A DNA stretch of 64,000 bases, from NCBI GenBank assembly GCA_000002445.1, contig CH464491.1:5184001-5248000 (forward strand), in the 5' to 3' direction. A program made the position numbers and the translations under genes. Positions 18,764 to 53,619 of this stretch are shown piece by piece. The number at the start of each line of letters is the position of its first letter. The stretch's first letter is position 1. Source of the DNA: Trypanosoma brucei. Taxonomy: Eukaryota. The notes under the pieces were generated by a model, which had not been told where the DNA came from, did no database searches, and was given only the letters and a program-made list of their open reading frames with translations.

Positions 18764-21700
18764 CCCTCGCGATGCCGGCCACCTCAACGTGGTGCCAGGG
18801 TCCAGTACCCCGTATCATCGGGGAAAGCCAAGAGCCAGCAGAGTTCCTTTCATGAGGAACACTGCTGTGCTCCGGCTACGGCATCATACAGCACAGGGAT
18901 CAGCAGCGTCTTGCTGGGACACCGTTCTTCATTTGTCTGTCCCTGGGGACGTGCCAGCGTGCCATCAACAGTATCATCCGCACTAAGATGCTGCTGTCCG
19001 GTGATGTGGAAGAGAATCCCGGACCGTCGTTGCGCGGGATGCAGTGGAACTGCGCCGGGGTATCTCAAGGAAAGAGATTAGCACTCCACAAAACCCTTGT
19101 TGATGAGCGGATCGCCTTTTGTCTGTTGAGCGAGACAAGGATGACGCCTGGAGAGGCGGCTTGCTTTAGCGTTGCTGGCTACCAACATCACGGAATAGCT
19201 CGTAACTTCAAAGGAGGTGGTGTATCAATACTAGTGAGGGGGGACCTACCAGTCGAGACCGGTATGGCCGTTGTTGGTCGCATTGAACAAGTGCATGCAA
19301 CAATTCACCTTGCACGTGGAACGGCGCTGACTGTCACGTCGGCATACATCCCACCAAAACACACCTTCACGGCAACTGACCTAGATACGCTTCTGACAAC
19401 TGACGGTGCCCAGCTCATCGGTGCAGACGCTAACGCACACGCGTTGGCATGGGATCGCGCGAGCCCACCAAATACAAGGGGTGAAACCCTCACACAGTGG
19501 TGCATTGACAATTAGTTTCTGGTCTGCAACACTGGTGAGTGCACCAGGTACGCGCGCCACCACGGGGAGTCCACCCCTGATGTGACACTGTCAAGGAATT
19601 GCACAGTGCACACGTGGACATCGCTGTATTCTCCCGATAGCGATCACCATCACATATTTTTCGACGTTATCGTTGGAGACGACACAGATGCACTGAGTTG
19701 CCCGCGGCTTCGAAAGCCCATGTACGCATGGCTAAAAGCTGACTGGAGGAATATCCGTCTCAAGGTTGACGAGCTCTGCAGGAAAATTAATAGAGAGAAG
19801 AACGTCAACACCCTGGAACAGAAATTGAGCTTCGCCATCCGCATTGCGACGAAGGTCTCCGTCCCCCGTGGCTGCAGAGCAACGGCATCACATTGGACAC
19901 CTGAGCTCGCGAAACTCGATGAAGAGATCGCTGGATGCGGACCCTCCCACCGAAGGGAAAAGTTGGTAGCCACGCGTAAGCAGATCCTGGACCGTACCAC
20001 AAAGAAGAGATGGAGCACGCTATGCTCCAGACTTGCGGTGTCAGACCGCTGCAGTTGGCACATTGTCAAGAAGGTATATCCGCCACGACCACTAACCACA
20101 CCGGCTGTACTTGTTGATAACGCGGCCATCACGGACTACTGTCAAGCTGAGAGGTTCATTAAACTGTACTCGTCCCGCGCAAGAAGGCACCCCGACTCAC
20201 ACCCACCGGCACCAATAAAGACGATAGCGAGTGAGTTCAGTCCCATCACGATGGCTGAACTACGGAAATCGATCAAACAACTTCCGAGTGGATCCACAGC
20301 CGGACCTAATTGCTTATACAACGAGGCACTACAACATCTCGGTAGAACAGCGTTGAATGTTGTTCTGAGGCTATTCAATGAGAGCCTACGAACGGGAGTC
20401 GTGCCGCCTGCATGGAAGACTGGTGTTATCATCCCCATCCTGAAGGCCGGAAAAAAGGCGGAGGACCTCGATTCTTACAGGCCAGTGACGCTCACGAGCT
20501 GTCTCTACAAAGTCATGGAGCGCATAATTGCCGCGAGACTTAGAGACACTGTTGAGTCCCAGCTGACGCCGCAGCAATCAGGCTTTCGCCCCGGATGCTC
20601 AACGCTCGAACAACTCCTGCACGTCCGCGCTGCCCTCCGCCGTCCCACGCACCAATCTCGTACGGGTGCTGTATTTGTCGACTACGAGAAGGCATTCGAT
20701 ACAGTAGACCACGACAAAATTGCGAGGGAAATGCACAGAATGAAGGTATCACCCCACATTGTGAAGTGGTGCGTATCATTTCTGAGTAACCGAACTGGCA
20801 GAGTGAGATTCAAGGAGAAGCTTTCCAGAAGCAGAACATTTGAGCGAGGAGTGCCACAAGGAACTGTCCTTGGCCCAATCATGTTCATTATTGTCATGAA
20901 CTCGTTGAGCCAACGCCTTGCAGAAGTGCCGTTACTGCAGCACGGATTCTTTGCAGACGACCTGACGCTACTTGCGAGGCACACAGAGAGGGATGTCATC
21001 AACCACACACTACAATGCGGTCTAAACGTGGTGTTACAGTGGTCAAAAGAGTACTTCATGTCTGTCAACGTAGCGAAAACAAAGTGCACACTCTTCGGGT
21101 GTATAGAGCGTCACCCCCTTACATTACAACTGGACGGCGAAAGAATAGGAGCTGACAGGACACCGAAGCTTCTAGGAGTAACATTCCAGTGTCTGCAAGG
21201 GATGGCAACACATGCGGCCAAAACGAGACGCAAGATGGATTTCAGACTACTGCAGATAGCAGCCATCTCAGCTTCTACATGGGGGCCAAGACGACAAGTA
21301 CTGAGAGCTTTTTATCTAGCACTCGTACAGGCACACACCATGTATGGCATTGAGGTATGGTACTGGGACGCTTCGGAACGAAGTCGCGACCTCCTTGCAT
21401 CAGCACAACACAAAGCCAGTCGCATCATAGCCGGCATACCACATGGGACGCGCAAAGAGGACTCTCTGCTGGAAGCAAACCTCCTGCCACTCAAGACGAC
21501 CACTCTTGTGCGCAGCATGAAATTCATGCTGATGTGTGAGTCACGAGGCGGATGTTTGCGGCGCAGTGCTGAATAAGTATACCACAGCAAACACCCAGTC
21601 AGAGTCTTACATTCCCGCATCATGCGGTCCTATCCCCAACTCCGCATTGAGCCACGCGAGCAACCACTAGAGACATCGACGCTCCGCCACAGCTGCCGAC

Positions 21701-24028
21701 CGCTATTTCACACGCAGATAAAGCCTGTGTGCGCTGATGACCCTGACGATGTCAAAAGGGAGGCTTCCGAAAAGTGGATTGAACGGCATTTTGCACGGAG
21801 GGGGAAGGAGCCACCGCGGCGAGAGCACTACGAATTGTGGACTGATGGATGCGTGTCCCTCGGTGAGAAGTCCGGAGCAACTGCCCTGCTCTATAGAAAC
21901 AACACGCTGATTTGCGCACCCAAAACTGGAGCAGGGGAACTCTCATGCAGTTACAGAGCGGAATGCTTAGCATTAGAGATAGGACTGCAACGGCTGCTGA
22001 AATGGCTTCCGGCATACAGAAGCACAACGAGCAGGTTGTCCATCTTCTCTGACTCGCTGTCAATGTTAACAGCACTGCAGACAGGCCCCCTAGCCGTAAC
22101 GGACCCAATTCTAAGACGACTATGGAGGCTTCTGTTTCAAGTTCAGAGAAGGAAGATACGTATCCGACTGCAATTTGTGTTTGGCCATTGTGGCGTGAAA
22201 CGGAATGAGGTTTGTGACGAAATGGCCAAAAAGGCCGCAGATTTACCACAGTTGCGAGACACATGGATCCCCAACATCATTGCTTATGCGAAGCGAGTGC
22301 TTAGGTCGGAAGAAGTCTATGAGAACACTCATAGGTTTGGTATCACGGGCAACCACTTTCCAACAAAACCTAAGAAAGAAGAACTGACGAGGGAGGAAGA
22401 AACGGCACTGGCACGCTTTCGGGTTGGGTCCTCAAGACACTATGGCTGGATGTTGCGAAAGATCAACCCGAGTGTGCCTCCACAGTGCCGATGGTGCAAC
22501 CCGCAACATGCAGAGATAGGGCCAACAATACAAACAGCCCTACCTATTGCGACACGCACTCTTCAGAGAACCTCCGAACCGACCAAATGTACGGAATGTG
22601 ATGCCACATACCAATGCCGCTCGAGTGCTGTAACGCACATGGTAAACATGGCTTTGTGCGAGCTGATGCCCTCAGGAGGATCAAATACGGCGATGCAACA
22701 CCTGCAGTGGACATCCCCCCGGAGTCCCCTCCAGTGGTGGCGATCGTTCCTCTACCATTCGAGCACACGAGTCCAGATGAGACCGCAGGTGCTTCATTGT
22801 ACCCTCTGTACCTCCAAATTCGCAGTGCCAGGCCGACTATTACACCACCTTAGAACAATACATGGCATAGGCAGCGGTAGTTTGCCGCGTGAAAAGGGGG
22901 CGAGAGAACGAGGACTCAGTGCAAGGAGATGGTAGAGCTCCAGCAGCGCCAGCCTCTCAGGATACACGGAAGCTGCCGTTTCAATGTGACCTGTGCGAGC
23001 CGAGCTTCGGTACACGTTCTTCCCTGTCACTACACAAAAAATTCAAACATAAGAGCATAGTGACGGAGGACGGTACCGTGGTGGTGGTGCAACTCCCTCG
23101 TAAGCGTGCCCGTGAGGGAAACGTTGACGTCCCGGGGAAGGGCGAGGTGCAGTGTGGTGTGTGCCAAAAAGTGCTCAGTTGCAGGGACTCCCTCATCCGA
23201 CACTGTAAGGCTTTCCACAAAGGTGAGGGAGTCGAGCTTAAATGCAGCAAAAGCACAAAATTGTGTGCCACTGATTCCCCGCATACAAACACATACATGT
23301 ACATCCATCTTGGTGTGCCCGACATGCGGAAGGCAGTGTGCTAGCAAAACTGGCCTCACCCTACATCAAAAGAAGATGCACGGTATGAAGGTAGAGCGCG
23401 CTGTTACCAGCCAACGCGGCGAATGCGAAGAAACGTCGCTGCACTTGATGAGCTGTCCCGGTTTGAAGGAGTTACGTGTCAGGTTTGCGGTAGAAGGTGA
23501 GTGTGTGCAGGATGTATGTTTCTCTAAAAGGCTGGCGCAGTTTCTCATTGCGGTTGAACGGAGCCGGCCACAGGTGAAGTCCTCACCTAAGGTAACAGTC
23601 ATACAACCCACTCTCCCTTCTGCAACTTCCCCCCTTATTGCCGAGTGTGGAGCTAGCAGGAAAAGCACCGGACGCAGGAATAGTCCAGACACCCTTAGAG
23701 ACAGAGGAGGTATGCAGTCAACAAGCAACAGAAACAGAAAGAGGGGGAGAGAATAATAAACGAATAACAAAAATCAAAACAAAAGGATTGGTAATTGACA
23801 TCTTTGAGAGAGTCCGGGGTGGGGGGTTTCTCGCCCCATCTGCTGTATTCCGTTCAACTTCGGAGCTACAATAAAAAATTATAGAGAGTGTGTTAGGGTG
23901 AATAAAAAAGGGAGACTCTGCCACAGTCGCCAGACCGATAGCATATCAGTGCTCTACGGTGATGGCTGATGGCCGCGCCAGTGGGGGGAAACTCCCACGA
24001 AGGCACGAAGAAAATTCCAAAAAAAAAA
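18764..24028 (+). mobile_element. ingi non-LTR retrotransposon, full-length but degenerate (copy 1)
   Basis: Starts with the RIME/ingi 5' end ccctcgcgatgccggccacctcaacgtggtgccagggtccagtac and ends in poly(A) at 24019-24028. Collinear with copy 2 (48352-53607) at a few percent divergence. The ORF is broken into five pieces (18988-19515, 19582-21576, 21622-22935, 22889-23344, 23106-23756) by a GAA>TAA change at 21574, a 4-bp deletion at ~22650, a +1 insertion at ~22757 and a 10-bp insertion at ~23300. Confidence 0.9.
19003..19026 (+). other. 2A-like peptide motif DVEENPGP in the ingi ORF (copy 1)
   Basis: gatgtggaagagaatcccggaccg encodes DVEENPGP, matching the D(V/I)ExNPGP viral 2A consensus. 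Confidence 0.7.
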
Positions 24029-24030
24029 TG

Positions 24031-25056
24031 CCTCTGTTTTTCTGCTTCGACGAGCATTTTTTGGGCAGCAAGAAACTGTCCCACCCAGGGGAGTTTTGTA
24101 ATATCCTTGTTCCGTACGACGCCATTGTAGTCTATGCAAGCGGATGCTTCGTCTTGTCCGTCGAAGTCGTTGTTGGTTTCTCCGCCTCCTATCACGTTCT
24201 CTGTGTTTGCGCCGGTGGATGGTGCTGTGCCAAACAAACTTGCGAATTGGGCAAGCGCCGCGTCGATGGTTGATGGTGTCACATGCCGCTGGGTTGCTGA
24301 GGGTGGACACTTTGTTACTATCGTTTGTAGTGCTCTCTTAGCGCTCTGTGCTGTGTCTCCACCGCTGTTTTTGTAGCTTTGTTCGTTGCCGCCTGCCACA
24401 CACAGGTTGGTCGCACCCGCTGAGGAACACAGGCAAGCCAAATCCGATGCTAGGCTGGCTCCCTGCTCGGCCGGACTGTCCTTTTTGCACCTGTTCGCGT
24501 GGTTGCCATATATGCTGTCGTCCGTAGTCTCCTTGTTTGTATCACCCGTTAGCGCTTGCTTCAGGTGGCTTCTTACACCGCCAGCCAAAGCTGTTATTGC
24601 TTGTTGTGCATCGTTGAGCCGTTTTCTGGTTTCGGCTGCTGCTGTTCGAATTTTGTCCATCGCACATTGTACACGCTGCCGGGTTTCTTCGTCTCCGATA
24701 CGTAAATATTTTGTTTTTGCTTCTGGTGTATGTGCCTCCAGCAAACTTTTCTTTTTTTGCTCCCACGCTTGCTTGTTGAACGTCGAAAAAATTTTTGCTG
24801 TGAAATTAACTGTTGGCAGCGTTACAATGTACAAATCCTCTATGTCGTCTGGCGGTTCAGGTGTGTCGCTCCGCGTTAAGTCTGTTGTGTTTGGTTCCGA
24901 TGTGCACAGCTTGTAAATTTCGCAAAATACAGAGAATTCTTTGCCGTTCTTTGTGGTCGCTGCGGCGCCAAGTTGAGCTGCCAATAGTAGAAGGGCCAAT
25001 GCTTTTGATATGGCGAATATAGCGCATCCCGACATTGCATACCCGTATCTGATCAT
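24031..25056 (-). pseudogene. VSG N-terminal domain (~342 aa) truncated by the ingi poly(A) end; C-terminal domain and 3'UTR absent
   Basis: ATG at 25056 (or 25035, MSGCAIFAISKALALLLLAAQLGAAATT). VSG sequence runs to ...LVEAEKQR, then reads into ingi sequence. Confidence 0.75.
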
Positions 25057-33217: not shown

Positions 33218-33380
33218 ATTCTCATTATAATATTCGTATATGCACACTCACAACACTCTCCTATCATTATCATTATTATTATTATTTTTACTGCTCTTAG
33301 TATAATAATAGTATATACACGCACACGACACTCTCCTATTATTATCATCATTATCATTATCATTATCATTACTATTACAG
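33218..33380. repeat. 70-bp repeats (two units) upstream of the VSG at 29660-31201
   Basis: ctcattataatattcgtatatgcacactcacaacactctcc... and tataataatagtatatacacgcacacgacactctcc... Confidence 0.8.
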
Positions 33381-38958: not shown

Positions 38959-40488
38959 TTAGAAAACCATGGCCACAAATGCAGAAACAATCATGGCGAA
39001 TTGTTTGTTTGCTATAATAGAGGAATTTTTGCACTCTTTTCCATCCCATTTACAGTCAGGAGATTTGAAATCTTTCTCCGGTTTCCATTTACATTTATTT
39101 TCTGTTGTTTTAGCCGGTCCTTTTTGAGGTTGTGTTACAGGGACACCATTTGCTGTGGCTTTCGTTGCATTATATTTGCACCTTTTTGTACCATCGCTTT
39201 CTTTTTCATAACTGCATTCATTTTCTTTGTTGCATGTCTCTTCCGTAACTATTTGATTGCATTTGTTAGTCGGCTGAGTCCCCTGGTCGCCTTTGCGGTT
39301 GACATTGTCGCTGCTTGTCTGACCGGCTGTTGGAGGTGCGGTCTTCTGTAGCAGTGCTGCCGCATAGGCTTTATTTTTGGCCACAGCAAGTTGCTGTTCG
39401 AGTGCCGTCGCTTCTGCGATTGCTTTTTCTTGCTGGCGCAGATCGTCGTGGAGAGCTAGCAACTTCTGGGCCCAGGGGATCGCCGCAAAATCCTTGGTGG
39501 GCGTCCCGTCATAGCCAGCGTACTTTATGCATATTCCTTGTGTTTTGTCGCCGTTGCAGCTGCTTCCTGTTTTGAGAGCCCCCATGTAGGCGTTGGCGCC
39601 TACTCTTCTTATTAGGTTTTTGATCTTGGTTATGAGACCCATTAATAGGCTGGATGTTAGGTGCGTTTTTGCTGGGCCGGCGCAGTGCTTTACTATTTCC
39701 TCGAATCCGTCCTTGGTCATGGCGTTGGTGATCGATGTCCACTTGTGAGTATCTGCCTGGTTTCTTGCGCACACTTTTTCTGCTTGGGCGTTGTCTTGGC
39801 CGCAGATACAGTAAATAGCGCCTGCGATTGTTGTTGTTTTAGCTTCGCTGCCTAGCCCGACGCAGATCGCTTCCCTTGCTTGTGTGTTCAGACCGTCATA
39901 GTTTCTCGTTGGCTCAAAGTCTGGTGGTGCCTCTTGTTTGACGCCGTATATAGCTTCGTTTAGCGCCGCTTTAACGGTGGCCGCTGTATGCTTTTTGCCT
40001 ACGTTCTCTTTTTCGGCGATTTGTTGTGTTAGGAATTGTGCTTCTGCTGCTATTTGTGCTACACTTGCTTTGGCCCCTGCCCTTTCTATTGGGTTTAAGG
40101 TTTCGAAGCCGCTGCTTTTTATCTCTGCTGCCGTTCCTTGGTCGGCTAACCTGGCCGCGGCGGCGGCCCACTTTGGCCAACTTTTTTTCCAGTGGCCAGG
40201 GTCTGCTGTGCCTGCCGGAAGCTCTTTTATCCACTCTTTTTTCGCCCCGTCCTTACTGAACCGCTTCTGCCACGACTCATCTGCTAAGCTCATGTTAAGG
40301 GCTAGAACGGCCCCTTCTAGGGCAGCTGTCTGATCCGGAAATTGGTTAATGGTTATGTCCGATCGTGAAAGATCGACAATAGCGCACAATGCACCAAATT
40401 CCTGCTCGTTTGCTCCTGCCGGTATGTTGCCTCTTGCTTGCTCTGCCGTTAGTGCTAAGGCCAGCAGCGCCGTCGCTTGGGGCGTCAT
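38959..40488 (-). CDS. Variant surface glycoprotein (VSG), apparently intact, 509 aa
   Basis: ATG at 40488 with signal MTPQATALLALALTAEQARG. A-type motif EQEFGALCAIVDLS. C-terminus CKWDGKECKNSSIIANKQFAMIVSAFVAMVF*. Confidence 0.85.
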   Translation of the reverse strand: MTPQATALLALALTAEQARGNIPAGANEQEFGALCAIVDLSRSDITINQFPDQTAALEGAVLALNMSLADESWQKRFSKDGAKKEWIKELPAGTADPGHWKKSWPKWAAAAARLADQGTAAEIKSSGFETLNPIERAGAKASVAQIAAEAQFLTQQIAEKENVGKKHTAATVKAALNEAIYGVKQEAPPDFEPTRNYDGLNTQAREAICVGLGSEAKTTTIAGAIYCICGQDNAQAEKVCARNQADTHKWTSITNAMTKDGFEEIVKHCAGPAKTHLTSSLLMGLITKIKNLIRRVGANAYMGALKTGSSCNGDKTQGICIKYAGYDGTPTKDFAAIPWAQKLLALHDDLRQQEKAIAEATALEQQLAVAKNKAYAAALLQKTAPPTAGQTSSDNVNRKGDQGTQPTNKCNQIVTEETCNKENECSYEKESDGTKRCKYNATKATANGVPVTQPQKGPAKTTENKCKWKPEKDFKSPDCKWDGKECKNSSIIANKQFAMIVSAFVAMVF

Positions 40489-47974: not shown

Positions 47975-48045
47975 ACACTATAATAATAGTATATACACGC
48001 ACACGACACTCTCCTATTATTATTATTTTCATTATCATAACTATT
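47975..48045. repeat. 70-bp repeat upstream of the VSG at 44891-46339
   Basis: tataataatagtatatacacgcacacgacactctcctattatta, near-identical to the unit at 33300-33345. Confidence 0.7.
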
Positions 48046-48255
48046 ACTGATATCCATAAAAAAACAAAATAAACTAGTTTATAATAGTGCTCAATTTTCA
48101 TACCCTCTTACTTTGTAGCTTTAAGCCACTTTCTTACTCATTTACAAATTTTTACATTTTCATTAAAAAATGTTAAAGTACTTCACATTTTAGAATTTTT
48201 ATAAATTTCTCTGAAAATAGCAAATTTGAGAATATTATAAAAATTTTCATTAACT

Positions 48256-48351: not shown

Positions 48352-48359
48352 CCCTGGCG

Positions 48360-51300
48360 ATGCCGGCCACCTCAACGTGGTGCCAGGGTCCAGTACCCCG
48401 TATCATCTGTGGAAGCCAAGAGCCAGCAGCGTTCCTTTCATGGGGAACACTGCTGTGCTCCGGCTACGGCATCATACAGCACAGGGATCAGCAGCGTCTT
48501 GCTGGGACACCGTTTTTCATTTGTCGGTCCCTGGGCACGTGCCAGCGTGCCATCAGCAGTATCATCCGCACTAAGATGCTGCTGTCCGGTGATGTGGAAG
48601 AGAATCCCGGCCCATCGTTGCGCGGGATGCAGTGGAACTGCGCCGGGCTATCTCAAGAAAAGAGATTAGCACACCACAAAACCCTTGTTGATGAGCGGAT
48701 CGCCTTTTGTCTGTTGAGCGAGACAAGGATGACGCCTGGAGAGGCGGCTTGCTTTAGCGTTGCTGGCTACCAACATCACGGAATAGCTCGTAACTTCAAA
48801 GGAGGTGGTGTATCAATACTAGTGAGGGGGGACCTACCAGTCGAGACCGGTATGGCCGTTGTTGGTCGCATTGAACAAGTGCATGCAACAATTCACCTTG
48901 CACGTGGAACGGCGCTGACTGTCACGTCGGCATACATCCCACCAAAACACACCTTCACGGCAACTGACCTAGATACGCTTCTGACAACTGACGGTGCCCA
49001 GCTCATCGGTGCAGACGCTAACGCACACGCGTTGGCATGGGATCGCGCGAGCCCACCAAATACAAGGGGTGAAACCCTCACACAGTGGTGCATTGACAAT
49101 TAGTTTCTGGTCTGCAACACTGGTGAGTGCACCAGGTACGCGCGCCACCACGGGGAGTCCACCCCTGATGTGACACTGTCAAGGAATTGCACAGTGTACA
49201 CGTGGACATCGCTGTATTCTCCCGATAGCGATCACCATCACATATTTTTCGACGTTATCGTTGGAGACGACACAGATGCACTGAGTTGCCCGCGGCTTCG
49301 AAAGCCCATGTACGCATGGCTAAAAGCTGACTGGAGGAATATCCGTCTCAAGGTTGACGAGCTCTGCAGGAAAATTAATAGAGAGAAGAACGTCAACACC
49401 CTGGAACAGAAATTGAGCTTCGCCATCCGCATTGCGACGAAGGTCTCCGTCCCCCGTGGCTGCAGAGCAACGGCACCACATTGGACACCTGAGCTCGCGA
49501 AACTCGATGAAGAGATCGCTGGATGCGGACCCTCCCACCGAAGGGAAAAGTTGGTAGCCACGCGTAAGCAGATCCTGGACCGTACCACAAAGAAGAAATG
49601 GAGCACGCTATGCTCCAGACTTGCGGTGTCAGACCGCTGCAGTTGGCACATTGTCAAGAAGGTATATCCGCCACGACCACTAACCACACCGGCGGTACTT
49701 GTTGATAACGCGGCCATCACGGACTACTGTCAAGCTGAGAGGTTCATTAAACTGTACTCGTCCCGCGCAAAAAGGCACCCCGACTCACACCCACCGGCAC
49801 CAATAAAGACGATAGCGAGTGAGTTCAGTCCCATCACGATGGCTGAACTACGGAAATCGATCAAACAACTTCCGAGTGGATCCACAGCCGGACCTAATTG
49901 CTTATACAACGAGGCACTACAACATCTCGGTAGAACAGCGTTGAATGTTGTTCTGAGGCTATTCAATGAGAGCCTACGAACGGGAGTCGTGCCGCCTGCA
50001 TGGAAGACTGGTGTTATCATCCCCATCCTGAAGGCCGGAAAAAAGGCGGAGGACCTCGATTCTTACAGGCCAGTGACGCTCACGAGCTGTCTCTGCAAAG
50101 TCATGGAGCGCATAATTGCCGCGAGGCTTAGAGACACTGTTGAGTCCCAGCTGACGCCGCAGCAATCAGGCTTTCGCCCCGGATGCTCAACGCTCGAACA
50201 ACTCCTGCACGTCCACGCTGCCCTCTGCCTCCCCACGCACCAATCTCGTACGGGTGCTGTATTTGTCGACTACGAGAAGGCATTCGATACAGTAGACCAC
50301 GACAAAATTGCGAGGGAAATGCACAGAATGAAGGTATCACCCCACATTGTGAAGTGGTGCGTATCATTTCTGAGTAACCGAACTGGCAGAGTGAGATTCA
50401 AGGAGAAGCTTTCCAGAAGCAGAACATTTGAGCGAGGAGTGCCACAAGGAACTGTCCTTGGCCCAATCATGTTCATTATTGTCATGAACTCGTTGAGCCA
50501 ACGCCTTGCAGAAGTGCCGTTACTGCAGCACGGATTCTTTGCAGACGACCTGACGCTACTTGCGAGGCACACAGAGAGGGATGTCATCAACCACACACTA
50601 CAATGCGGTCTAAACGTGGTGTTACGGTGGTCAAAAGAGTACTTCATGTCTGTCAACGTAGCGAAAACAAAGTGCACACTCTTCGGGTGTATAGAGCGTC
50701 ACCCCCTTACATTACAACTGGACGGCGAAAGAATAGGAGCTGACAGGACACCGAAGCTTCTAGGAGTAACATTCCAGAGTCTGCAAGGGATGGCAACACA
50801 TGCGGCCAAAACGAGACGCAAGATGGATTTCAGACTACTGCAGATAGCAGCCATCTCAGCTTCTACATGGGGGCTAAGACGACAAGTACTGAGAGCTTTT
50901 TATCTAGCACTCGTACAGGCACACACCATGTATGGCATTGAGGTATGGTACTGGGACGCTTCGGAACGAAGTCGCGACCTCCTTGCATCAGCACAACACA
51001 AAGCCAGTCGCATCATAGCCGGCATACCACATGGGACGCGCAAAGAGGACTCTCTGCTGGAAGCAAACCTCCTGCCACTCAAGACGACCACTCTTGTGCG
51101 CAGCATGAAATTCATGCTGATGTGTGAGTCACGAGGCGGATGTTTGCGGCGCAGTGCTGAAGAAGTATACCACAGCAAACACCCAGTCAGAGTCTTACAT
51201 TCCCGCATCATGCTGTCCTACCCCCACCTCCGCATTGAGCCACGCGAGCAACCACTAGAGACATCGACGCTCCGCCACAGCTGCCGACCGCTATTTCACA

Positions 51301-53336
51301 CGCAGATAAAGCCTGTGTGCGCTGATGACCCTGACGATGTCAAAAGCGAGGCTTCCGAAAAGTGGATTGCACGGCATTTTGCACGGAGGGGGAAGGAGCC
51401 ACAGCGGCGAGAGCACTACGAATTGTGGACTGATGGATGCGTGTCCCTCGGTGAGAAGTCCGGAGCAACTGCCCTGCTCTATAGAAACAACACGCTGATT
51501 TGCGCACCCAAAACTGGAGCAGGGGAACTCTCATGCAGTTACAGAGCGGAATGCGTAGCATTAGAGATAGGACTGCAACGGCTGCTGAAATGGCTTCCGG
51601 CATACAGAAGCACAACGAGCAGGTTGTCCATCTTCTCTGACTCGCTGTCAATGTTAACAGAACTGCAGACAGGCCCCCTAGCCGTAACGGACCCAATTCT
51701 AAGACGACTATGGAGGCTTCTGCTTCAAGTTCAGAGAAGGAAGATACGTATCCGACTGCAATTTGTGTTTGGCCATTGTGGCGTGAAACGGAATGAGGTT
51801 TGCGATGACATGGCCAAAAAGGCCGCTGATTTACCACAGTTGCGAAATACATGGATCCCCGACATCATTGCTTATGCGAAGCGAGTGCTTAGGTCGGAAG
51901 AAGTCTATGAGAACACTCATAGGTTTGGTATCACGGGCAACCACTTTCCAACAAAACCTAAGAAAGAAGAACTGACGAGGGAGGAAGAAACGGCACTGGC
52001 ACGCTTTCGGGTTGGATCTTCAAGACACTATGGATGGATGTTGCGAAAGATCAACCCGAGTGTGCCTCCACAGTGCCGATGGTGTAACCCGCAACATGCA
52101 GCGATAGGGCCAACAATACGAATGCCCCCAACTGTTGCGACACGCACTCTTCAGAGAACCTCCGAACCGACCAAATGTACGGAGTGTGATGCCACATACC
52201 AATGCCGCTCGAGTTCTGTAACGCACATGGTAAACAAACACGGCTTTGTGCGAGCTGATGCCCTCAGGAGGATCAAATACGGCGATGCAACACCTGCAGT
52301 GGACATCCCCCCGGAGTCCCCTCCAGTGGTGGCGATCGTTCCTCTACCATCGAGCACACGAGTCCCGATGAGACTGCAGCTGCTTCATTGTACCCTCTGT
52401 ACCTCCAAATTCGCAGTGCCAGGCCGACTATTACACCACCTTAGAACAATACATGGCATAGGCAGCGGTAGTTGCCGCGTGAAAAGGGGTCGAGAGAACG
52501 AAGACTCATTGCAAGGAGATGGTAGAGCCCCAGCAGCGCTAGCCCCTCAGGATACACGGAAGCTGCCGTTTCAATGTGACCTGTGCGAGCCGAGCTTCGG
52601 TACACGTTCTTCCCTGTCACTACACAAGAAATTCAAACATAAGAGCATAGTGACGGAGGACGGTACCGTGGTGTTGGTGCAATTCCCTCGTAAGCGTGCC
52701 CGTGAGGGAAACGTTGACGTCCCGGGGAAGGGCGAGGTGCAGTGTGGTGTGTGCCAAAAAGTGCTCAGTTGCAGGGACTCCCTCATCCGACACTGTAAGG
52801 CTTTCCACAAAGGTGAGGGAGTGGAGCTTAAATGCAGCAAAAGCACAAAATTGTGTGCCACTGATTCCCCGCATACAAACGCATCCATCTTGGTGTGCCC
52901 GACATGCGGAAGGCAGTGTGCTAGCAAAACTGGCCTCACCCTACATCAAAAGAAGATGCACGGTATGAAGGTAGAGCGCGCTGTTACCAGCCAACGCGGC
53001 GACTGCGAAGAAACGTCACTGCACCTGATGAGCTGTCCCGGTTTGAAGGAGTTACGTGTCAGGTTTGCGGTAGAAGGTGTGTGTGTGCAGGATGTATGTT
53101 TCTCTAAAAGGCTGGCGCAGTTTCTCATTGCGGTTGAACGGAGCCGGCCGCAGGTGAAGTCCTCACCTAATGTAACAGTCATACAACCCACTCTCCCTTC
53201 TGCAACTTCCCCCCTTATTGCCGAGTGTGGAGCTAGCAGGAAAAGCACCGGACGCAGGAATAGTCCAGACACCCTCAGAGACAGAGGAGGTATGCAGTCA
53301 ACAAGCAACAGAAACAGAAAGAGGGGGAGAGAATAA
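48360..53336 (+). CDS. ingi polyprotein: AP-endonuclease, 2A-like motif, reverse transcriptase, RNase H, three C2H2 zinc fingers; one internal in-frame TAG
   Basis: ORFs 48360-49103 and 49170-53336 are in the same frame, and the codons at 49104-49169 contain no stop. RT motifs FVDYEKAFDTVDHDKI and FADD. RNase H-like region ELWTDGC...ECVALEIGL...FSDSLS. Fingers FQCDLCEPSFGTRSSLSLHKKFKHK, QCGVCQKVLSCRDSLIRHCKAFHK and CPTCGRQCASKTGLTLHQKKMHG. Confidence 0.85.
48591..48614 (+). other. 2A-like peptide motif DVEENPGP (copy 2)
   Basis: gatgtggaagagaatcccggccca, in frame within the ingi ORF. Confidence 0.7.
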
Positions 53337-53619
53337 TAAACGAATAACAAAAATCAAAACAGAAGGATTGGTAATTGACATCTTTGAGAGAGTCCGGAGT
53401 GGGGGGCTTCTTGCCCCATCTGCTGTATTCCGTTCAACTGCGGAGCTACAACAAAACGTTATAGAGAGTGTGTTAGGGTGAATAAAAAAGGGAGACTCTG
53501 CCACAGTCGCCAGACCGATAGCATCTCAGGACTCTACGGTGATGGCTGATGGCCGCGCCAGTGAGGGGAAACTCCCACGAAGGCAGGGAGAAAATTCCAA
53601 AAAAAAATTTTTATTGTTA

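What the first reader, a model, noticed from the sequence alone, without database searches (positions are those of the whole stretch)
49101..49103. Near-intact 1657-codon ingi ORF interrupted only by an in-frame TAG that is shared with the degenerate copy
In copy 2, ORFs 48360-49103 and 49170-53336 are in the same frame and the 22 intervening codons are open. The whole element is therefore one 1657-codon frame with a single TAG after ...LTQWCIDN, lying between the endonuclease and RT domains. Copy 1 has the identical TAG at 19513-19515 in the same context, so the stop predates the divergence of the two copies. It is not a private inactivating mutation. Two readings are possible. Either the internal TAG marks a subfamily tolerated through read-through or separate expression of the endonuclease (ORF1-like) and RT (ORF2-like) parts. 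Or both copies descend from an already dead master copy.
Basis: partly seen in the sequence, partly recalled or inferred. Interest (0 to 1): 0.5.

Follow-up and report, generated by a model that had tools for sequence, protein, structure and literature searches.

The report
Inherited nonsense mutation in dead ingi copies
Two copies of the ingi retrotransposon in a Trypanosoma brucei surface-antigen gene array share one premature stop codon because they share a stretch of already decaying DNA, not because the stop is part of how the element is expressed, so the finding is ordinary.

Summary
Copy 2 (48352-53607) has one frame, 48360-53336, broken only by TAG at 49101-49103. Copy 1 (18764-24027) has the same TAG at 19513-19515.

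- The TAG (codon 248) lies inside the AP-endonuclease domain (codons 90-295). It is upstream of invariant D270 and H292, which align with the D205 and SDH-motif residues of human L1. It does not lie between the endonuclease and RT domains.
- All 12 other ingi copies I could retrieve, from T. b. equiperdum and T. b. gambiense, read AAC CAG (Asn-Gln) where the window reads AAT TAG. One of them is an intact 1656-aa copy. At least seven further annotated ingi proteins also have Gln here. The consensus is an open 1657-codon ORF.
- The two window copies share 44 changes seen in no other copy, including replacements of invariant RT and RNase H residues. Their nonsynonymous:synonymous ratio is that of neutral decay.
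- The two copies are 99.4% identical only in an internal tract around the TAG. Their ends are no closer than random pairs, and neither has a target-site duplication.

The TAG is therefore a CAG>TAG null mutation of a small dead lineage, probably spread by gene conversion or recombination. The window is T. b. brucei TREU927, and its other ingi copies could not be surveyed.

The parts
48352..53607 (+). ingi copy 2: 5256 bp, starts CCCTGGCG, ends in an A9 tail, no target-site duplication
   Evidence: Self-BLAST boundaries. Junction sequences. TSD search: best 8/12 match.
48360..53336 (+). Single reading frame of copy 2: 1657 sense codons, one internal TAG and the terminal stop
   Evidence: Translation. 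No frameshifting indel against the consensus.
49101..49103 (+). The in-frame TAG (codon 248). It derives from CAG (Gln). The adjacent base 49100 is also C>T (AAC>AAT, synonymous), so the change is CC>TT.
   Evidence: Sequence. 12/12 other copies read AAC CAG. Consensus is Q248. Both bases are shared-derived.
48627..49244 (+). AP-endonuclease domain (codons 90-295), interrupted by the TAG
   Evidence: Pfam Exo_endo_phos 90-292 and Exo_endo_phos_2 187-295 on the Gln-restored protein and on intact P0150.
49167..49169 (+). Codon for D270, an invariant endonuclease Asp downstream of the stop. It aligns with the Asp of human L1 ORF2p in 'SKIDH'; I recall this residue as D205.
   Evidence: Invariant column. 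Profile alignment to L1 ORF2p 8sxt. Coordinates.
49233..49235 (+). Codon for H292 of the SDH motif, an invariant catalytic His downstream of the stop
48591..48614 (+). 2A-like peptide DVEENPGP (codons 78-85), intact
   Evidence: Translation. 2A-like sequences of ingi are described in PMC3708506.
50046..50774 (+). Reverse transcriptase domain (RVT_1)
   Evidence: Pfam E=2.5e-45.
51414..51827 (+). RNase H domain
   Evidence: Pfam E=6e-08.
51958..51960 (+). In-frame 3-bp insertion shared by copies 1 and 2 and absent from all 11 aligned comparison copies
48796..51100 (+). Internal tract of 99.39% identity with copy 1 (19208-21512), containing the TAG. No pair among the other copies is as close over this tract.
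   Evidence: Segment-wise identities. Distribution of differences.
18764..24027 (+). ingi copy 1 (5264 bp), degenerate. It has the same TAG, two further stops (18853-18855 and 21574-21576) and four frameshifting indels: a 4-bp deletion after 22643, 1-bp insertions at 22758 and 22881, and a 10-bp insertion at 23291-23300. It has no TSD.
19513..19515 (+). The same TAG in copy 1

Best explanation
The TAG is an ordinary loss-of-function mutation (CAG Gln248 to TAG, as part of a CC>TT change) in a genomic ingi copy that was already decaying without constraint. It is not a recoding or expression signal.

It truncates the polyprotein inside the AP-endonuclease domain, before two residues needed for catalysis. 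The 247-aa product is therefore an inactive endonuclease fragment, and nothing downstream is made in meaningful amounts.

The two copies in this TREU927 chromosome-11 VSG array carry the same TAG because they share a recent internal DNA tract of at least 2.3 kb. The most likely route is gene conversion or ectopic recombination between two pre-existing ingi insertions. Retrotransposition of the dead copy with proteins supplied in trans, followed by recombination at the ends, is the alternative route.

Shown: the stop is derived, it lies inside the domain, it is absent from all other sampled copies, the substitution pattern is neutral, and the relatedness of the two copies is mosaic. Inferred: the mode of copying, and the lack of downstream translation.
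For: Sense codon elsewhere:
- 12/12 other ingi DNA copies have AAC CAG.
- Annotated proteins P0001, P0002, P0135-P0141, P0150, P0153 and P0155 all have Gln.
- T. grayi has Glu and T. theileri has Asp at this position.
- The consensus of 11 copies is an open 1657-codon ORF with Q248.
- An intact 1656-aa copy, P0150/L007a, has Gln and also a near-perfect TSD.

Position in the protein:
- The stop lies inside Exo_endo_phos (codons 90-292).
- Invariant D270 and H292 lie downstream of it and align with the Asp of SKIDH and the His of SDH in human L1 ORF2p.

Neutral decay:
- N:S of changes unique to the pair is 23:11, and of copy-2 private changes 30:15.
- The baseline for single-copy changes in other copies is 444:231 (Fisher p=1.0 against each).
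- The ratio for variants shared among lineages is 78:95 (Fisher p=0.023 and 0.012; 0.0017 combined).
- Shared changes replace conserved residues: F328I, A509T, D513N (the conserved Asp that aligns with PGPDG in L1) and S1027C (the TDGS motif of RNase H).
- One stop in about 79 coding changes matches the rate of about 2% stops per change seen in other copies.

Mosaic relatedness:
- Identity between the two copies is 99.39% over 48796-51100. It is 96.6% in the first 444 bp and 95.3% in the last 127 bp, which is the level of random pairs.
- Neither copy has a TSD, and the flanks are unrelated.
- ingi and RIME are reported to recombine in T. brucei genomes (PMC2854126).
Against: - The survey is small: 12 DNA copies plus about 7 further proteins. 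It comes from T. b. equiperdum and T. b. gambiense, not from TREU927 itself. Further TAG-bearing copies in TREU927 cannot be excluded.
- Copy 2 has no frameshift in 102 substitutions. Most comparison copies have 2-6, so the Poisson chance of none is roughly 0.03-0.06. However, 2 of 10 comparison copies also have none, and the long-read assembly they come from may inflate indel counts.
- T. brucei tRNA-Gln(CUG) can decode UAG (bioRxiv 10.1101/2023.06.19.543857). Basal leakage would therefore restore the ancestral Gln.
- No expression data were available.
Confidence: 0.85

Rival explanations
1. A dead master was mobilised in trans. A transcribed TAG-bearing ingi was reverse-transcribed and inserted by proteins from intact ingi copies, as happens for the non-coding RIME. 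This produced daughter copies that inherit the stop. Later recombination erased the TSDs and replaced the element ends.
For: - Shared derived changes run from 48796 to 53478, nearly the full length of the element.
- RIME is regarded as mobilised by ingi-encoded proteins, so trans-mobilisation exists in this system (PMC2323293; PMC5814959).
- Most sampled subtelomeric copies lack TSDs anyway.
Against: - Both ends of the two copies are no more alike than random pairs, and the 3' half is 2-3% diverged against 0.6% in the centre. Extra recombination events would be needed to explain this.
- Only two copies of the lineage were seen.
- Neither copy has a TSD.
Confidence: 0.25
2. Tolerated or programmed read-through. 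UAG is decoded at a useful rate, by near-cognate tRNA-Gln(CUG), so copy 2 still yields the full-length polyprotein with the ancestral Gln. The TAG would then mark a functional, down-tuned subfamily.
For: - Copy 2 has no other stop and no frameshift.
- T. brucei tRNA-Gln(CUG) promotes UAG read-through in reporter assays when over-expressed.
- A hairpin begins 7 nt after the stop, with z=-2.09.
Against: - The stop is absent from the consensus, from the intact copy and from all 12 other copies.
- Substitutions in this lineage are neutral and have replaced invariant RT and RNase H residues.
- Copy 1, the only other carrier, is heavily degenerate.
- The context is UAG-U, the least favourable tetranucleotide in the yeast assays, and it lacks the CARYYA-type motif.
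- 7.4% of 120-nt windows along the ORF fold as well as the downstream region, and that downstream sequence is the same in CAG copies.
Confidence: 0.03
3. Split expression. The TAG separates an ORF1-like endonuclease protein from an ORF2-like RT protein, and the second is made by re-initiation.
For: - Two long same-frame ORFs flank the stop.
- Many non-LTR elements have two ORFs (PMC3708506).
Against: - The stop is inside the endonuclease fold. The upstream piece lacks D270 and H292, and the downstream piece lacks D219, N221 and H223.
- The next in-frame ATG is codon 317, beyond the whole catalytic core.
- The ingi clade is described as having a single ORF and no ORF1.
- The GTG 'start' at 49170 is an artefact of the bacterial ORF rule.
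Confidence: 0.01
4. Assembly artefact. The near-identity of the central tracts, and so the shared TAG, comes from reads of one repeat copy being used for both during assembly of a repetitive VSG array.
For: A 524-bp stretch around the TAG is identical in the two copies, and the central 2.3 kb is 99.4% identical, while the rest is 2-5% diverged.
Against: - The central tract still holds 14 differences spread along it.
- Lineage-specific shared changes also occur well outside the tract.
- I recall TREU927 as a clone-based Sanger assembly; this is from my own knowledge and was not tested here.
Confidence: 0.03

Closest known systems
Tbingi (ingi) non-LTR retrotransposon of Trypanosoma brucei: degenerate or pseudogene copies
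   Same: - 5.25-kb element with one long frame encoding a 2A-like peptide, AP endonuclease, RT, RNase H and C2H2 fingers, plus an A-rich tail.
- 95-97% identical to other T. brucei ingi copies.
- Most genomic copies carry stops or frameshifts, as these two do (PMC3447711).
   Different: Nothing essential. These two copies form a small lineage marked by the TAG, a 3-bp insertion and about 40 further private changes. Neither has the 12-bp target-site duplication.
Potentially functional ingi (single 4971-bp ORF, 1657 aa), for example T. b. equiperdum RHW74236.1 (P0150)
   Same: Same length and domain order. Copy 2 is 96.9% identical to that copy's DNA and has no frameshift.
   Different: - The functional type has CAG (Gln) at codon 248 and, in the copy examined, a TSD.
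- Copy 2 has TAG and substitutions at invariant residues.
Gag-UAG-pol read-through of gammaretroviruses (MuLV), named from my own knowledge
   Same: An in-frame UAG in a retroelement polyprotein frame. Read-through would insert Gln.
   Different: - In MuLV the stop sits at a boundary between functional modules, is conserved in all functional genomes, and is followed by a conserved spacer and pseudoknot.
- Here the stop is inside a catalytic domain and is absent from functional copies. The downstream sequence is not specific to the copies that carry the stop.
Inactive human L1 copies sharing inherited nonsense mutations, and gene conversion between dispersed LINE copies (my own knowledge)
   Same: Null mutations are shared by a few copies through common descent or conversion. 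Substitution after inactivation is neutral.
   Different: Different clade and host. Here the setting is a recombination-prone subtelomeric VSG array.

Membership tests
Tbingi non-LTR retrotransposon | Element of about 5.25 kb with high nucleotide identity to other T. brucei ingi copies | tested here: met
   5256 bp and 5264 bp. 95.4-97.3% identical over the full length to 11 copies from T. b. equiperdum and T. b. gambiense.
Tbingi non-LTR retrotransposon | Single long frame with 2A-like peptide, AP endonuclease, RT, RNase H and C2H2 zinc fingers | tested here: met
   Pfam hits and translation. The architecture is described in PMC12278014 and PMC3708506.
Tbingi non-LTR retrotransposon | A-rich 3' tail and 12-bp target-site duplication | tested here: inconclusive
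   An A9 tail is present. Neither copy has a TSD (best 8-9/12 matches). Most sampled subtelomeric copies also lack one, so absence is read as later recombination.
Tbingi non-LTR retrotransposon | Conserved 5' signature of about 77-79 nt (Pr77) and RIME halves at both ends | not tested
   No reference Pr77 or RIME sequence was compared. The 5' end is conserved among all copies and strongly structured (z=-4.2). No Rfam family matched.
Potentially functional (autonomous) ingi | Uninterrupted ORF of 1657 codons | tested here: not met
   TAG at codon 248 in both copies. Copy 1 also has two more stops and four frameshifts.
Programmed stop-codon read-through site | The stop is conserved among functional members of the family | tested here: not met
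   0 of 12 other DNA copies, and none of the annotated proteins reaching the site, have a stop. The intact copy has CAG.
Programmed stop-codon read-through site | The stop lies at a boundary between independently functional modules | tested here: not met
   It lies inside the AP-endonuclease domain, between the D-x-N-x-H motif and the D270/H292 motifs.
Programmed stop-codon read-through site | A read-through-promoting context or downstream structure specific to the site | tested here: not met
   The context is UAG-UUU-CUG. Downstream fold z=-2.09, matched or beaten by 7.4% of ORF windows. The downstream sequence is the same in CAG copies.
Programmed stop-codon read-through site | Purifying selection on the coding sequence downstream of the stop in the lineage that carries it | tested here: not met
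   N:S is 23:11 for shared changes and 30:15 for copy-2 private changes, equal to the neutral baseline. Invariant residues are replaced.
Programmed stop-codon read-through site | Measured read-through or downstream translation | not testable with these tools
   No ribosome-profiling or proteomic data were accessible. A literature search found none for ingi.

The most novel reading that the evidence does not exclude
Copy 2 may not be fully dead. Basal near-cognate decoding of UAG by T. brucei tRNA-Gln(CUG) would insert exactly the ancestral Gln. This frameshift-free copy could then yield trace amounts of full-length ingi polyprotein, making the TAG an accidental attenuator rather than a null allele.
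Probability: 0.04. Interest if true: 0.4.

Novelty: already known. Interest (0 to 1): 0.1.

Why it matters
It matters little. The finding documents how a null mutation comes to be shared by dispersed ingi copies in a VSG array. It also shows that ingi copies there are mosaics shaped by recombination or gene conversion, which is consistent with published statements that ingi and RIME recombine. Its practical use is as a caution: two same-frame ORFs around a shared stop in a retroelement are not evidence of recoding. The stop must first be shown to be conserved in functional copies and to lie at a domain boundary.

Tried and rejected
- Read-through signal. The stop context was examined, and the downstream fold was compared with 81 windows along the ORF. 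It is not exceptional.
- ORF1/ORF2-like split. Rejected by domain mapping and by the position of the next ATG.
- Segmental duplication. The 10-kb flanks share only generic VSG-array repeats.
- Simple retrotransposition. No own or crossed TSDs were found.
- Single-sequence search of solved structures with the endonuclease region. No hit; a profile search worked.
- Key papers on ingi census and subfamilies (Bringaud 2004, doi 10.1093/molbev/msh045; Bringaud 2009, PMC2756862). Not held.
- Exact look-up of the window's 1388-aa ORF. Not on record.
- Metagenome scan for the site with either codon. 0 hits.
- Rfam scan of the window. 0 hits.
- Literature search for ingi ribosome profiling. Nothing usable.
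- Survey of TREU927 ingi copies other than the two in the window.
Full report
**1. The observation**

The window holds two full-length ingi elements on the + strand. Copy 2 is at 48352-53607 and copy 1 is at 18764-24027. They are 97.9% identical over 5268 aligned columns.

- In copy 2, frame 48360-53336 translates as 1659 codons with one internal stop, after ...LTQWCIDN, plus the terminal stop.
- The stop is TAG at 49101-49103.
- The ORF list gives 48360-49103 and 49170-53336 as separate ORFs. They are in the same frame, and the 22 codons between them are open.
- Copy 1 has the identical TAG at 19513-19515 in identical context.

The description is correct at the stated coordinates.

**2. Source and setting**

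A VSG gene in the window (38959-40488, - strand) is 100% identical to a protein of Trypanosoma brucei brucei TREU927 on a 5.26-Mb contig. By size I take this contig to be chromosome 11. Most long ORFs on the - strand are VSGs by Pfam. The two ingi copies therefore sit, about 29.6 kb apart, in a silent VSG array.

**3. Where the stop lies in the protein**

That is wrong.

- With the stop restored to Gln, Pfam Exo_endo_phos covers codons 90-292 (the full model, 1-225) and Exo_endo_phos_2 covers 187-295. The intact homologue P0150 gives the same picture. The TAG is codon 248.
- I aligned ingi-clade proteins, from T. brucei out to relatives of about 30% identity. The invariant columns are P194, D219, N221, H223, W227, G237, D270, W282 and H292.
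- A profile of that alignment matches human L1 ORF2p (8sxt, E=6e-55). It puts GADANAH on L1 GDFN, SPDVTL on L1 SKIDH, and SDH on L1 SDH.
- From my own knowledge, L1 D205 and H230 are required for nicking.

The 247-aa product therefore lacks two catalytic motifs, and anything made downstream lacks the other motifs. The first in-frame ATG after the stop is codon 317 (49308), beyond the whole catalytic core. The 'start' at 49170 is a GTG picked by the bacterial ORF rule. Separate expression of an endonuclease and an RT is excluded by the anatomy.

**4. What other copies have at this position**

Homology searches and cluster look-ups returned annotated ingi fragments from T. b. equiperdum (GCA_003543875.1) and T. 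b. gambiense DAL972.

- Every protein that reaches the site has Gln: P0001, P0002, P0135-P0141, P0150, P0153 and P0155. P0150 is an intact 1656-aa ORF.
- T. grayi has Glu and T. theileri has Asp at this position.
- I fetched the DNA of 11 loci holding 12 ingi copies that cover the site. All 12 read GACAAC-CAG-TTT, where the window copies read GACAAT-TAG-TTT.
- The consensus of 11 comparison copies is an open 1657-codon ORF with Q248. This matches the published description of a potentially functional ingi: a 4971-bp ORF of 1657 aa (PMC3447711).

The TAG is therefore derived from CAG, as part of a CC>TT change. It was not seen outside the window.

The limit of this survey is that the comparison copies come from two other T. 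brucei subspecies. TREU927 does not annotate ingi as proteins, so its other copies could not be reached. The window's own 1388-aa ORF is not on record.

**5. Was the TAG-bearing lineage under selection?**

Against the consensus, copies 1 and 2 share 64 differences, of which 44 occur in no other sampled copy. These run from 48796 to 53478 and include an in-frame 3-bp insertion at 51958-51960. I classified coding changes as nonsynonymous (N, counting stops) or synonymous (S).

| Class of change | N:S |
|---|---|
| Found in a single comparison copy (decay after insertion) | 444:231 |
| Shared by two or more comparison copies (spread through active lineages) | 78:95 |
| Unique to the copy 1 + copy 2 pair | 23:11 |
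| Private to copy 2 | 30:15 |

- The two baselines differ from each other (Fisher p=1e-6).
- The pair-specific and copy-2 private classes match the decay baseline (p=1.0 for each).
- They differ from the selected class (p=0.023 and 0.012; 0.0017 when pooled).

Four shared changes replace residues that are invariant or nearly so across the clade:
- F328I
- A509T
- D513N, the Asp that aligns with PGPDG of L1
- S1027C, in the TDGS motif of RNase H

About 2% of decay substitutions in other copies create stops (14 of 675). One stop in about 79 coding changes on the copy-2 lineage is what neutral decay predicts.

The absence of frameshifts in copy 2 is mildly unusual. Most comparison copies have 2-6. 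However, L007a and L009 also have none, and L007b and L010 have 11 and 18 single-base deletions, which look like long-read assembly errors that inflate the baseline.

Copy 1 has two more stops (18853-18855 and 21574-21576) and four frameshifting indels.

The lineage was unconstrained both before and after the two copies separated.

**6. How the two copies came to share the stop**

- Neither copy has a 12-bp target-site duplication, own or crossed.
- The 10-kb flanks share only generic VSG-array repeats.

Relatedness between the two copies is mosaic:

| Segment (copy 2 coordinates) | Identity, copy 1 vs copy 2 | Comparison with the other copies |
|---|---|---|
| 48352-48795 (first 444 bp) | 96.6% | 10 of 45 other pairs are as close; each window copy has a closer relative elsewhere |
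| 48796-51100 (contains the TAG) | 99.39% | 0 of 45 other pairs are as close |
| 51101-52000 | 98.1% | 1 of 45 |
| 52001-53480 | 97.0% | 2 of 45 |
| 53481-53607 (last 127 bp) | 95.3% | 25 of 45 |

In the 3' part, copy 2 also shares at least ten variants with the T. b. equiperdum copy in L010, several of them seen only there.

An internal tract of recent common ancestry, flanked by ends of unrelated ancestry, is the pattern expected from gene conversion or ectopic recombination between pre-existing insertions. Published work says that ingi and RIME recombine in trypanosome genomes (PMC2854126).

Retrotransposition of the dead copy in trans, as for RIME, followed by recombination at the ends, remains possible. 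I cannot separate the two routes with the data at hand. Either way the stop is inherited as DNA of a dead element.

**7. Read-through**

- The context is AAU-UAG-UUU-CUG.
- The 120 nt from the stop fold with z=-2.09, including a hairpin beginning 7 nt after the stop.
- 7.4% of 120-nt windows along the ORF score as low or lower.
- The sequence flanking the stop is essentially the same in CAG copies, so it is not adapted to the stop.
- A preprint shows that T. brucei tRNA-Gln(CUG) can drive UAG read-through in reporter assays when over-expressed. In yeast the preference is UAG-G > A > C > U (10.1101/2023.06.19.543857).

Leakage would put back the ancestral Gln. This is the only point in favour of a residual-function reading. 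The context is the least favourable one, and the protein carries damaging substitutions. I found no ribosome-profiling or proteomic evidence for ingi translation.

**8. Comparison with what is known, and verdict**

These are ordinary degenerate members of the Tbingi family. Copy 2 is a 'one-lesion' pseudogene, like L009 in the comparison set. Membership of the 'potentially functional ingi' class fails on the uninterrupted-ORF criterion. Membership of the 'programmed read-through' class fails on four tested criteria:
- conservation of the stop in functional copies
- position at a module boundary
- a context specific to the site
- selection on the downstream sequence

- Interest: about 0.1.
- Novelty: already known in kind.
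- Most novel reading not excluded: trace read-through restoring Gln. I put its probability at about 4%.

Noticed in passing
P0134 (XP_018644078.1), member of the P0001 cluster: A 163-aa 'LOW QUALITY PROTEIN' annotated in Schistosoma mansoni, on a 13-kb contig, clusters at 90% identity or more with T. brucei ingi endonuclease fragments. The likeliest explanation is T. brucei DNA contaminating that assembly.
   Followed up: no
window 51990-52075 (+), inside the ingi ORF: A long stable hairpin lies in the coding region between RNase H and the zinc fingers. The 120-nt window at 51960 has z=-4.98, and the 151-nt fold has z=-3.2. It lies just after the 3-bp insertion shared by the two copies.
   Followed up: partly
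window 48360-48600 (+), 5' end of ingi copy 2: The first ~240 nt of the ORF (three overlapping 120-nt windows, 48360-48599) are the most structured part of the element apart from 51960 (z=-4.2, -3.7 and -3.0). This fits the published Pr77 / HDV-like ribozyme region of this clade, yet no Rfam family reaches its gathering score anywhere in the window.
   Followed up: partly
window 52016-53457 versus L010 9503-14742: The 3' part of copy 2 shares at least ten variants with one T. b. equiperdum copy, several of them found only in that copy. More generally, variants are shuffled among copies with little linkage, which indicates extensive recombination or conversion among ingi copies.
   Followed up: partly
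window 23893-25056 (-): A VSG_B-type ORF with no C-terminal VSG domain runs into the 3' end of ingi copy 1 (which ends at 24027). This looks like a VSG gene truncated at the ingi junction, with no TSD and no obvious other half upstream of the element.
   Followed up: no
L007 9993-15243 (+) and 16901-22127 (-): The intact 1656-aa ingi of T. b. equiperdum lies 1.6 kb from a second copy in inverted orientation. That copy is 98.3% identical but carries 11 one-base deletions. The intact copy is the only sampled one with a near-perfect TSD: TTCTCCTCACA against TTCTCCTTCACA.
   Followed up: partly
L007b and L010: These two copies have 11 and 18 single-base deletions, against 0-6 frameshifting indels in the other full-length copies. 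This is possibly homopolymer error in the long-read assembly rather than biology, and it would inflate any indel baseline taken from that genome.
   Followed up: no
window 47976-48048 and 283, 8672, 12164, 15679, 29301, 33223-33373, 44357, 61810: A short motif of about 70 bp just upstream of ingi copy 2 recurs at least ten times across the window at 78-90% identity. These are presumably the 70-bp repeats that precede VSG genes.
   Followed up: no
L003 and L010, 3' flanks of their ingi copies: The two T. b. equiperdum loci have nearly identical sequence immediately after the ingi tail (tat(t/a)atgttaaatttttcaaaatagcac). These two copies therefore belong to a duplicated segment rather than to independent insertions.
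   Followed up: no
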